A DNA stretch of 64,000 nucleotides. Origin: a virus. Taxonomy: Duplodnaviria; Heunggongvirae; Uroviricota; Caudoviricetes. A program made the translations under genes and the position numbers. Under the pieces are notes generated by a model that saw nothing but the letters and a program-made list of their open reading frames with translations, made no database searches and was not told where the DNA came from. Of this stretch, positions 51,143-51,574 are shown piece by piece. Positions within the stretch are counted from its first letter, which is position 1. Every line of letters starts with the position of its first letter. The stretch covers positions 1-64,000 of the IMG/VR virus record IMGVR_UViG_3300048672_000524; one strand, written 5' to 3'.

Positions 51143-51574
51143 ATGAAGTATCTCGATAAAATGCTACTGCTTGCAACTACTAAGTTTGCAGGTAAATTTG
51201 ATAAGGCAGGTAAGCCCTATATTCTCCACTGTCTAGCTGTAATGCATAAGCTACGTACAGATGATGAAGAACTAATGTGCATTGCCTTAGGTCATGACCT
51301 AGTAGAAGATACTGATGTTACGTATACTGAACTATCAGCTATCTTTAGTCATCGTATTGTAGAAGGCATTCGTGCCATGACCAAGCACACTGGTCAAACT
51401 TACGATGAGTATAAGGCACAGGTTGTGGCCAATTTTGACGCGGTACGTGTCAAGATGGCCGACCTGCAGCATAATAGTGACCTTCGTCGTCTAAAGGGTA
51501 TCACTGCTAAAGATGTAGAACGTACTGCTAAGTACATGTGCTTCTACCAAGAGCTAAAGGATTTGAATGTCTGA
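51143..51574 (+). CDS. RelA/SpoT-type HD-domain small alarmone hydrolase (SAH)
   Basis: SpoT hydrolase motifs: GKPYILHCLAV, ALGHDLVEDT (HD), KMADLQHN. Confidence 0.7.
   Translation: MKYLDKMLLLATTKFAGKFDKAGKPYILHCLAVMHKLRTDDEELMCIALGHDLVEDTDVTYTELSAIFSHRIVEGIRAMTKHTGQTYDEYKAQVVANFDAVRVKMADLQHNSDLRRLKGITAKDVERTAKYMCFYQELKDLNV

What the first reader, a model, noticed from the sequence alone, without database searches (positions are those of the whole stretch)
51143..51574. Phage-encoded RelA/SpoT-family HD hydrolase (small alarmone hydrolase)
The 143-aa ORF has the hallmark SpoT hydrolase motifs (GKPYILHCLAV, LGHDLVEDT, KMADLQHN) but no synthetase domain. A stand-alone (p)ppGpp/(p)ppApp hydrolase in an early-gene block is a plausible counter-measure to toxSAS (CapRel/FaRel-type) abortive-infection systems or to the host stringent response.
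Basis: partly seen in the sequence, partly recalled or inferred. Interest (0 to 1): 0.6.

Follow-up and report, generated by a model that had tools for sequence, protein, structure and literature searches.

The report
Phage stand-alone Aph1-type alarmone hydrolase
A T5-like phage carries a small enzyme of an already described family that strips the 3'-pyrophosphate from adenosine "alarm" nucleotides (and probably from poisoned tRNA ends); it is a solid annotation, but phage genes of this kind have already been described and tested.

Summary
The ORF is real: 51143..51574 (+), 143 aa, with all three quoted motifs. It is translationally coupled to both neighbours in a six-gene unit bounded by a terminator plus sigma-70-like promoter (about 50.6 kb) and a terminator (52.24 kb).

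It is a single-domain RelA/SpoT-type HD hydrolase. Its closest solved relative is Aph1, the (p)ppApp-specific hydrolase of Bacteroides caccae (PDB 7SMG). The sequence match has E 1.7e-22, and the AF2 model (pLDDT 95) superposes at TM 0.89 and rmsd 1.4 A. All metal and catalytic residues are kept, and so are 5 of the 6 Aph1 specificity residues (D20, D113, R116, K130, Y131).

It is 54% identical to gp220 of Salmonella phage PVP-SE1, the only RSH-hydrolase homologue found there. The PVP-SE1 stand-alone SAH was shown in 2020 to neutralise all five tested toxSAS toxins.

No synthetase or toxin gene was found in the 64 kb.

This is a new member of a known kind, of low to moderate interest.

A side lead: in other phages, relatives sit next to an RNA ligase, a P-loop kinase, a CCA-adding enzyme or a metallophosphoesterase.

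The parts
50585..50624 (+). Intrinsic-terminator-like hairpin (17-bp stem, T-run) that closes the preceding unit
50613..50641 (+). Best sigma-70-like promoter of the region (TTGAGA-17-TATAAT, 11/12); likely start of the SAH transcription unit
   Evidence: The total number of promoter-like sites in the region is not above the shuffles (19 vs 17.4), so this is a consensus match in a sensible place, not proof.
50668..50883 (+). ORF, 71 aa, first gene of the unit; weak match to phrog_4535 (unknown function)
50887..51141 (+). ORF, 84 aa, orphan; its stop lies one base before the SAH start
   Evidence: It has no homologue other than itself in 5.8 billion proteins and is not similar to the Tis1-like immunity protein of IPP64.
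51143..51574 (+). Small alarmone hydrolase of the Aph1/PbcSpo type (143 aa). Metal ligands H29, H51, D52, D107; catalytic E55-D56, N111; specificity signature D20, D113, R116, K130, Y131.
51567..51728 (+). ORF, 53 aa, overlaps the SAH stop by 8 nt (translational coupling); weak match to phrog_6391 (unknown function)
51725..51988 (+). ORF, 87 aa, unknown function, overlapping start/stop
51985..52221 (+). ORF, 78 aa, unknown function, last gene of the unit
52225..52242 (+). Terminator-like GC-rich hairpin plus T-run that ends the six-gene unit
53098..53898 (+). Calcineurin-type metallophosphoesterase (phrog_1649). It lies outside the SAH transcription unit, but orthologues lie 0-3.3 kb downstream of SAH homologues in three other phage lineages.

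Best explanation
The gene encodes a divalent-metal-dependent 3'-pyrophosphohydrolase of the Aph1/PbcSpo branch of small alarmone hydrolases. It is probably transcribed by host RNA polymerase from a sigma-70-type promoter, as the third gene of a six-gene operon in the non-structural part of a T5-like phage genome. The HD site (H29, H51-D52, D107 holding the metal; E55-D56 and N111 acting in catalysis) removes the pyrophosphate esterified to the 3'-OH of an adenosine. D20 and R116, with D113, K130 and Y131, select adenine over guanine. The likely substrates are (p)ppApp made by toxic RSH synthetases (FaRel or Tas1/Apk type) and the 3'-pyrophosphorylated A76 of tRNA made by CapRel, FaRel2 or PhRel-type toxSAS. 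By erasing these products, the phage would keep ATP pools and tRNA charging intact when a toxSAS abortive-infection system fires. Shown here: gene structure, fold, catalytic and specificity residues, family placement, and the absence of a detectable linked toxin. Taken from the literature: (p)ppApp hydrolysis by Aph1 and 12 homologues; toxSAS neutralisation by the PVP-SE1 SAH; restoration of tRNA charging by the SAH ATfaRel. Inferred: that this protein has the same activities, and that it acts as a counter-defence during infection.
For: Sequence. The best solved relative is 7smg_A, the (p)ppApp hydrolase Aph1: E 1.7e-22, aligned over residues 4-140. A profile of 40 homologues scores Aph1 at 122.5 bits against 53.5 bits for the next hit, Rel. 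The HD-less C-terminal 57 residues alone match Aph1 and no other RSH hydrolase in the PDB (E 2.9e-5); this is the criterion Ahmad et al. used to define the family.

Structure. The AF2 model has pLDDT 95.4. The Foldseek top hits are the four chains of 7smg (TM 0.88-0.90, rmsd 1.4-1.7 A over 137-138 columns). MESH1, Rel and other SAHs reach TM 0.64-0.81 at rmsd about 3-4 A.

Residues. H29, D52, E55, D56, D107, N111, D20, D113 and R116 are invariant in 120/120 close homologues. H51 and Y131 are kept in 119/120 and K130 in 118/120. Aph1 and PVP-SE1 gp220 share all of them, and RSP15 shares all but K130 (R), whereas B. subtilis Rel has R at the D20 position and T at the R116 position. In Aph1 the D24R+R119A double mutant gains ppGpp hydrolysis (PMC10083569).

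Functional precedent. PVP-SE1 gp220 is 54% identical. The PVP-SE1 SAH neutralises all five toxSAS tested (PMC7229694). SAH enzymes restore aminoacylation of FaRel2-pyrophosphorylated tRNA.

Context. The gene is stand-alone: no MuF or synthetase homologue was found in any frame of the 64 kb. It sits between a promoter-like site and a terminator.
Against: No activity data exist for this protein. One of the six Aph1 signature residues is not kept (R96 -> Q93; the position varies among homologues). The PbcSpo member ATfaRel lowered ppGpp in vivo (PMC7229694), so guanosine substrates cannot be excluded. The host is unknown, so it is not known whether it carries toxSAS or (p)ppApp-producing systems. 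No phage SAH has been shown in the papers read here to rescue an actual infection; the evidence is co-expression only. About 40 kb of the phage genome lies outside the window (the JGI contig is 103,964 bp), so a phage-borne toxin elsewhere is not excluded. Pfam failed to recognise the synthetase domain of a related MuF toxin used as a positive control, so the Pfam-negative result is weak.
Confidence: 0.6

Rival explanations
1. A (p)ppGpp hydrolase that keeps the infected cell out of the stringent response, so that transcription, translation and nucleotide synthesis continue for the phage.
For: It belongs to the same superfamily as the SpoT/Rel/MESH1 hydrolase domains, and database annotations call homologues ppGpp pyrophosphohydrolases. 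ATfaRel (PbcSpo) counteracted ppGpp accumulation in vivo. A 2026 preprint title reports that the stringent response restricts phages.
Against: The guanine-contacting R-[RK]-S is D-K-A here, and the position aligned to Aph1 R119 is R rather than the T seen in Rel. Aph1 shows no detectable ppGpp hydrolysis, and only 2 of 12 homologues showed modest activity. The model lacks the extra helices of ppGpp hydrolases: 143 aa aligned end to end with Aph1, versus 172-193-aa SAHs at rmsd above 3 A.
Confidence: 0.12
2. A 3'-end healing enzyme of a phage RNA (tRNA) repair or maintenance pathway. It would remove 3'-phosphate, 2',3'-cyclic phosphate or 3'-pyrophosphate from damaged tRNA, working with other phage translation-maintenance functions rather than on free nucleotides.
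For: Homologues are contiguous with an AAA_33 P-loop kinase and an Rnl1-type RNA ligase in two phage contexts. In RSP15 the order is tRNAs, YqeY, SAH, kinase, ligase; in the Thiobacillus-MAG contig L010 it is ligase, kinase, SAH. A CCA-adding enzyme lies two genes upstream in Vibrio phage 2.275.O. A metallophosphoesterase orthologue follows the SAH in L007, S-CRM01, RSP15 and this window. The window also encodes 23 tRNAs, a tmRNA and a Ro60/TROVE protein. SAHs act on tRNA 3' ends in vitro.
Against: The window has no homologue of the kinase, ligase or CCA enzyme in any frame. Most sampled contexts (Vequintavirinae, Aeromonas T4-likes, Atu_ph07, RTH11, L005) show none of these neighbours. The sample is small and was not tested against a background rate. 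This reading overlaps with the best explanation wherever the damage is toxSAS pyrophosphorylation.
Confidence: 0.15
3. An immunity enzyme against a (p)ppApp-synthetase toxin carried by the phage itself, as Aph1 is for the MuF toxin Apk2 in temperate phages.
For: The closest solved relative has exactly this role. Pneumococcal prophage IPP64 shows portal, MuF protein, a 69-aa protein, then an HD hydrolase that is 43% identical to the query.
Against: No MuF domain and no homologue of the IPP64 toxin occur in any frame of the 64 kb (best E 0.19). The upstream 84-aa gene is unrelated to the 69-aa IPP64 protein. The gene lies in a non-structural block of a T5-like phage, not beside a portal or head-morphogenesis gene. 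Jimmy et al. describe the PVP-SE1 and SSU5 SAHs as stand-alone.
Confidence: 0.05

Closest known systems
Aph1, adenosine 3'-pyrophosphohydrolase 1 of Bacteroides caccae (PDB 7SMG; Ahmad et al. 2023, PMC10083569)
   Same: Same compact single-domain HD fold and size (143 vs 149 aa; TM 0.89-0.90, rmsd 1.4 A, 36% identity). Same metal and catalytic residues. Same D-K-A segment in place of the guanine-binding R-R/K-S. Five of six signature residues are kept, and the homology extends through the family-specific C-terminal 50 residues.
   Different: R96 is Q93 here. Aph1 sits in a temperate phage directly downstream of its MuF-Apk2 toxin and a Tis1-like immunity gene, whereas this gene is stand-alone in a T5-like phage operon of orphan small genes. 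Tetramer formation and substrate specificity were not tested.
Stand-alone SAH of Salmonella phage PVP-SE1 (PbcSpo subfamily; Jimmy et al. 2020, PMC7229694), taken here to be gp220
   Same: 54% identity over residues 20-138, with the same HNSD[ILV]RRLKG and D-K-[AG] motifs. Both are stand-alone genes in a large phage. The PVP-SE1 SAH neutralises CapRel, PhRel, PhRel2, FaRel2 and FaRel in co-expression.
   Different: gp220 is 169 aa, with N- and C-terminal extensions. It belongs to a different phage family (Vequintavirinae) and has different neighbours (a ~340-aa 'thymidylate kinase' upstream and a MoxR ATPase downstream). That the tested protein is gp220 is my inference: it is the only RSH-hydrolase homologue my tblastn found in that genome.
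ATfaRel of Cellulomonas marina (type IV antitoxin SAH, PbcSpo)
   Same: According to the literature it is in the same SAH subfamily as the PVP-SE1 enzyme. It degrades toxSAS products and restores aminoacylation of pyrophosphorylated tRNA.
   Different: It is encoded inside a three-gene toxin-antitoxin operon.
SpoT/Rel hydrolase domains, MESH1, PaSAH, RelH (ppGpp-hydrolysing RSH hydrolases)
   Same: Same HD superfamily and catalytic core (H...HD...ED...D...N).
   Different: Only 17-28% identity. They are longer (172-193 aa for the SAHs) with extra helices and have guanine-recognition residues where this protein has D20 and R116. Structural fit is TM 0.64-0.81 at rmsd about 3-4 A, against 1.4 A for Aph1.

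Membership tests
RelA/SpoT-homologue hydrolases (small alarmone hydrolases, HD superfamily) | HD-domain fold with the metal ligands H...HD...D | tested here: met
   H29, H51-D52 and D107 align to those of Aph1 and Rel. The AF2 model matches only RSH hydrolases at the top of the PDB list.
RelA/SpoT-homologue hydrolases (small alarmone hydrolases, HD superfamily) | Catalytic ED dyad after the HD motif, and the conserved Asn of the D-x-x-x-N motif | tested here: met
   E55-D56 and N111 are invariant in 120/120 homologues.
RelA/SpoT-homologue hydrolases (small alarmone hydrolases, HD superfamily) | Hydrolase domain only: no synthetase, TGS or ACT domains | tested here: met
   The 143-aa ORF is fully covered by the HD domain.
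RelA/SpoT-homologue hydrolases (small alarmone hydrolases, HD superfamily) | Pfam HD_4 (PF13328) above its gathering score | tested here: not met
   26.3 bits against a cutoff of 27.2. PVP-SE1 gp220 (20.8) and the IPP64 hydrolase (26.1) also fail, so the model is insensitive to this branch. JGI's precomputed annotation lists PF13328.
Aph1 family of (p)ppApp hydrolases (Ahmad et al. 2023) | Homology to the HD-less C-terminal ~53 residues of Aph1 (the search that defined the family) | tested here: met
   Residues 87-143 alone hit 7smg_A (E 2.9e-5, chain residues 98-143) and no other RSH hydrolase.
Aph1 family of (p)ppApp hydrolases (Ahmad et al. 2023) | Signature residues D24, R96, D116, R119, K133, Y134 | tested here: inconclusive
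   Five of six are present (D20, D113, R116, K130, Y131). R96 is Q93 and varies among close homologues (Q 69, R 21, K 13, G 9, M 3). R96 is the one signature residue the paper places away from the active site.
Aph1 family of (p)ppApp hydrolases (Ahmad et al. 2023) | Compact fold lacking the two helices present in ppGpp hydrolases | tested here: met
   137 of 143 residues superpose on Aph1 at 1.4 A with TM 0.89/0.90 in both directions. Other SAHs are 30-50 residues longer and fit worse.
Aph1 family of (p)ppApp hydrolases (Ahmad et al. 2023) | Hydrolyses (p)ppApp but not (p)ppGpp; tetrameric | not testable with these tools
   Requires enzyme assays and SEC or crystallography.
PbcSpo subfamily of SAH (Jimmy et al. 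2020 classification) | Placement by the authors' subfamily HMMs or phylogeny | not testable with these tools
   The HMMs are not available here. Indirect support: 54% identity to PVP-SE1 gp220, and the PVP-SE1 SAH is classified as PbcSpo.
Type IV antitoxin or immunity SAH of a toxSAS / MuF-toxin locus | Encoded next to a toxic RSH synthetase gene | tested here: not met
   No RelA_SpoT or MuF domain by Pfam in any ORF of the window. phmmer with the IPP64 MuF toxin against all six frames finds nothing (best E 0.19). Caveats: Pfam missed the toxin domain in the positive control, and about 40 kb of the genome is outside the window.
Phage anti-defence protein (counter to toxSAS abortive infection) | Restores phage growth on hosts that carry the defence system | not testable with these tools
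   Only co-expression data exist, and only for relatives.

The most novel reading that the evidence does not exclude
In phages, the Aph1/PbcSpo-type hydrolase is primarily an RNA 3'-end healing enzyme rather than a nucleotide-pool enzyme. It would be the 3'-de(pyro)phosphorylating member of modular tRNA repair kits, which in some phages are physically assembled as an SAH + P-loop kinase + Rnl1-ligase cassette, or sit beside a CCA-adding enzyme or metallophosphoesterase. In this T5-like phage it would work alongside 23 tRNAs, a tmRNA and a Ro60 homologue as a translation-protection toolkit against tRNA-targeting defences.
Probability: 0.2. Interest if true: 0.55.

Novelty: new member of a known kind. 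Interest (0 to 1): 0.25.

Why it matters
If the prediction holds, this adds a T5-like phage to the list of large phages that carry an eraser of toxSAS products, probably a freshwater phage of a betaproteobacterium. It also gives one more natural sequence variant (Q at the Aph1 R96 position) for studying adenosine-versus-guanosine specificity. It does not open a new question. The family, its structure, its specificity determinants and the anti-toxSAS idea for phage-encoded members are all published. What is still missing in the field is proof during a real infection, and a decision on whether free (p)ppApp or pyrophosphorylated tRNA is the relevant substrate. The gene neighbourhoods noted here (RNA ligase, kinase, CCA enzyme, metallophosphoesterase) may help design that test.

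Tried and rejected
(1) Near-identical DNA in the phage collection: none for 50000-53000. The phage is only distantly related to known Demerecviridae (DNA polymerase 51% aa identity to Vibrio phage pVp-1).

(2) A linked toxin. Pfam on all 133 candidate ORFs, concatenated, gave no RelA_SpoT or MuF hit. The positive control showed that Pfam misses the IPP64 MuF-toxin C-terminal domain. I therefore repeated the search with phmmer --max, using that toxin against all six frames: nothing.

(3) The 84-aa gene translationally coupled upstream as a Tis1-like second immunity protein: rejected. It has no similarity to the IPP64 69-aa protein and no homologue at all in 5.8 billion proteins.

(4) The other four small genes of the operon: only weak matches to PHROGs of unknown function, or none.

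(5) pVp-1 gp084, an HD protein of the nearest phage lineage that follows the lysis genes there: a divergent HD protein without the Aph1 signature, so not an orthologue.

(6) RNA-repair partners in the window (kinase, Rnl1, CCA enzyme): none in any frame. Only a Metallophos_2 homologue at 38135-38692 was found.

(7) Confirming that the PVP-SE1 SAH tested by Jimmy et al. is gp220: no accession in the text and no supplements held, so this remains an inference.

(8) The metallophosphoesterase at 53098-53898 has no relative in the PDB by sequence.

Full report
OBSERVATION. The ORF exists exactly as described: 51143..51574 on the + strand, ATG start, 143 aa. Its translation contains GKPYILHCLAV, LGHDLVEDT and KMADLQHN. 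The raw sequence shows tight packing typical of a real phage gene. The upstream ORF ends with TAA at 51139-51141, one base before the ATG, and a GGTGG lies 5-9 nt upstream. The downstream ORF starts at 51567, 8 nt before the SAH stop. An identical protein and gene order occur on an independent assembly.

TRANSCRIPTION UNIT. A pattern scan places a 17-bp-stem terminator at 50585-50624. It overlaps the best sigma-70-like site of the region at 50613-50641 (TTGAGA-17-TATAAT, 11/12). A second GC-rich terminator lies at 52225-52242. Between them are six head-to-tail ORFs: 50668, 50887, 51143, 51567, 51725 and 51985. These are consensus matches, and promoter-like sites overall are not enriched over shuffles. 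Their placement is nevertheless coherent.

GENOMIC SETTING. The window is part of a T5-like phage. It holds a split family-A DNA polymerase, primase/helicase, a split NAD ligase, SbcCD, flap endonuclease, dUTPase, ThyX and homing endonucleases. It also carries 23 tRNA genes. Its DNA polymerase is 51% identical to those of the Demerecviridae Vibrio phage pVp-1 and related Vibrio phages. There is no near-identical DNA in the phage collection. The SAH operon is on the + strand, in a block that diverges at about 48.7 kb from the minus-strand tRNA/replication block. 'Early' expression is therefore plausible but inferred.

WHAT THE PROTEIN IS. Sequence searches place it in the RelA/SpoT hydrolase superfamily:
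- PHROG 990, E 7.7e-50.
- NCBIfam spoT_relA N-terminal region, E 1.3e-14.
- Pfam HD_4 at 26.3 bits, just under its gathering score.

Against solved structures, one hit stands far above the rest: 7smg_A, the (p)ppApp hydrolase Aph1 of Bacteroides caccae (E 1.7e-22, full length). Rel, SpoT, MESH1 and other SAHs come in at E 1e-7 or worse. With a 40-sequence profile the gap widens to 122.5 versus 53.5 bits.

An AlphaFold2 model built from that alignment is confident (pLDDT 95.4, pTM 0.89). Foldseek returns the four Aph1 chains first (TM 0.88-0.90 in both normalisations, rmsd 1.4-1.7 A, 36% identity). MESH1, Rel, PaSAH and RelH follow at TM 0.64-0.81 and rmsd about 3-4 A. The protein therefore shares Aph1's compact architecture, which Ahmad et al. 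describe as lacking two helices found in ppGpp hydrolases.

RESIDUE-LEVEL TEST. I aligned the query, 119 database homologues, Aph1, PVP-SE1 gp220, the RSP15 homologue and B. subtilis Rel.
- The metal ligands (H29, H51, D52, D107) and catalytic residues (E55, D56, N111) are essentially invariant.
- Ahmad et al. defined an Aph1 signature of D24, R96, D116, R119, K133 and Y134. They showed that D24R+R119A lets Aph1 hydrolyse ppGpp.
- The equivalents here are D20, Q93, D113, R116, K130 and Y131, so five of six are kept. All five residues that the paper places near the active site are among them.
- The R96 position varies within the clade.
- Rel has R and T at the D20 and R116 positions.
- The segment that contacts guanine in Thermus Rel (R43-R44-S45) reads D-K-A, as in Aph1.
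- The C-terminal 57 residues, which exclude the HD motif, still retrieve Aph1 and no other RSH hydrolase. This reproduces the search that defined the family.

RELATIVES AND PRECEDENT. The family is abundant: 1043 proteins at E<=1e-5, the top 120 being 63-72% identical, and 301 phage records. Among isolated phages the best matches are Ralstonia phage RSP15 (56%), several Vequintavirinae, a Vibrio jumbo phage, cyanophage S-CRM01, and Sinorhizobium and Agrobacterium jumbo phages.

Salmonella phage PVP-SE1 gp220 is 54% identical and carries the same motifs. Jimmy et al. 2020 tested the stand-alone SAHs of PVP-SE1 (PbcSpo subfamily) and SSU5 (PaSpo). Both neutralised CapRel, PhRel, PhRel2, FaRel2 and FaRel, and the authors explicitly proposed that phages carry SAHs to bypass alarmone-based abortive infection. 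Four of those toxins were later shown to pyrophosphorylate the tRNA CCA end. The SAHs ATfaRel and MESH1 restore aminoacylation of such tRNA, and SSU5 PaSpo is described as removing the modification.

Pneumococcal prophages carry a 43%-identical hydrolase directly after a MuF protein and a 69-aa gene. This is the toxin plus two-immunity arrangement described for Apk2/Aph1 and for SPNA45.

A motif-based scan of one genome per species found only 8 loci, all on MAG contigs, and most of them phage-like. One lies in a clearly chromosomal alphaproteobacterial context. This particular clade therefore appears mostly virus-borne, with the caveat that the scan needs exact peptide patterns.

STAND-ALONE STATUS. 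Pfam scans of all candidate ORFs in the window gave no RelA_SpoT synthetase or MuF domain. Pfam also failed to recognise the toxin domain of the IPP64 MuF protein. I therefore searched all six frames with that toxin by phmmer --max: nothing, best E 0.19. The translationally coupled 84-aa upstream gene is not a Tis1-like immunity protein and is an orphan. About 40 kb of the genome is outside the window, so a toxin elsewhere cannot be excluded.

MECHANISM. The best-supported reading is a metal-dependent adenosine 3'-pyrophosphohydrolase made from a host-type promoter. It would erase the products of toxic RSH synthetases: free (p)ppApp and/or 3'-pyrophosphorylated tRNA A76. Both substrates present an adenosine 3'-diphosphate. 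This would explain how an Aph1-like active site (PVP-SE1 gp220) can neutralise both classes of toxSAS. That unification is my inference.

A role in lowering ppGpp is less likely on the residue evidence, but it is not excluded, because ATfaRel reduced ppGpp in vivo.

SIDE LEAD. In several unrelated phages the SAH gene sits among RNA-end-processing genes.
- In RSP15 the order is tRNA cluster, YqeY-like, SAH, AAA_33 kinase, then a gene annotated 'metallophosphoesterase' that is in fact an Rnl1-type RNA ligase. That gene is 42% identical (E 7e-74) to the ligase of contig L010, which hits Pfam RNA_lig_T4_1.
- In L010 the order is ligase, kinase, SAH.
- Vibrio phage 2.275.O has a CCA-adding enzyme two genes upstream.
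- An orthologue of the window's metallophosphoesterase (53098-53898) lies immediately after the SAH in a 197-kb phage contig (42% identity). It lies 0.6 kb downstream in S-CRM01 and 3.3 kb downstream in RSP15.
- Most other sampled contexts show none of this.
- The window itself has no kinase, ligase or CCA-enzyme homologue.

The sample is small and has no background control, so this is a hypothesis, not a finding.

VERDICT. This is a new member of a known kind. Interest is about 0.25.

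Noticed in passing
window 26019-26419 (-): A phage-encoded tmRNA. Rfam beta_tmRNA scores 105 bits (gathering score 84) and tmRNA_permuted 118 bits (gathering score 47). ARAGORN calls a permuted tmRNA with tag peptide ANDSIFEVRLAA. The betaproteobacterial type, together with the best isolated-phage SAH match being a Ralstonia phage, hints at a betaproteobacterial host.
   Followed up: partly
window 25346-47130 (-): An array of 23 tRNA genes (ARAGORN), interspersed with small ORFs and HNH endonucleases. It includes two odd calls, tRNA-Ile(tat) of 68 nt at 37556-37623 and of 92 nt at 41011-41102. Rfam adds a tRNA-like hit at 44602-44673 that ARAGORN does not call.
   Followed up: no
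window 36139-37467 (-): A 442-aa protein with a TROVE domain (E 1.8e-10) and a Ro60 vWA domain: a Ro60/Rsr homologue inside the tRNA block. Bacterial Ro60 works with tRNA-like Y RNAs, so the atypical tRNA-like genes nearby could be Y-RNA-like partners.
   Followed up: no
window 47706-48209 (-): A protein with the N-terminal domain of dATP/dGTP diphosphohydrolase (PF18909, E 9e-26), a family associated with nucleotide-pool editing in phages.
   Followed up: no
window 28777-28972 (-): A group I intron (Rfam RF00028, 60.7 bits, gathering score 50) in the ThyX/HNH region. The DNA polymerase, ribonucleotide reductase and NAD ligase also appear split by LAGLIDADG, GIY-YIG or HNH homing-endonuclease genes.
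   Followed up: no
window 53098-53898 (+); L007 6441-7232; L022 6035-6838; L001 7692-8411: A phrog_1649 metallophosphoesterase lies 0-3.3 kb downstream of the SAH gene in four unrelated phage lineages: this T5-like phage, a 197-kb PolB phage contig, cyanophage S-CRM01 and Ralstonia phage RSP15. It has no PDB relative by sequence and only weak NCBIfam similarity to the cAMP phosphodiesterase CpdA.
   Followed up: partly
L001 (RSP15) 2918-5905; L010 2395-4432: A contiguous SAH + AAA_33 P-loop kinase + Rnl1-type RNA ligase cassette occurs in two phage contexts. RSP15 ORF097 is mis-annotated as a metallophosphoesterase; it is 42% identical to the RNA ligase of L010. This suggests an RNA-repair role for some phage SAHs.
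   Followed up: partly
window 58630-59055, 59614-60081, 63604-63996 (-) and 56945-57253 (+): Several paralogous small proteins share an N-terminal motif (..K[AT]VNYT[PE][AE]QTT..V..Y..G.TVE..A...GKTVRS[VI][IV]AKL[ST]REGVYKAKEYK..), with weak GcrA/HTH similarity. GC content rises from about 0.38-0.40 to 0.45 after 56 kb. Two SprT-like metalloprotease genes lie in the same region.
   Followed up: no
window 49497-49904 (+) and 52346-52858 (+): A SleB-type cell-wall hydrolase with a signal peptide (PF07486, E 1.7e-27). Further on is a secreted protein with weak similarity to PagP-like outer-membrane proteins (phrog_3600). These flank the SAH operon. In pVp-1 a divergent HD protein follows the holin/endolysin genes.
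   Followed up: no
L022 (S-CRM01) 4977-5437: The SAH homologue of cyanophage S-CRM01 is split into two adjacent ORFs (two tblastn pieces, annotated as two CDS). This could be a frameshift or a pseudogene.
   Followed up: no
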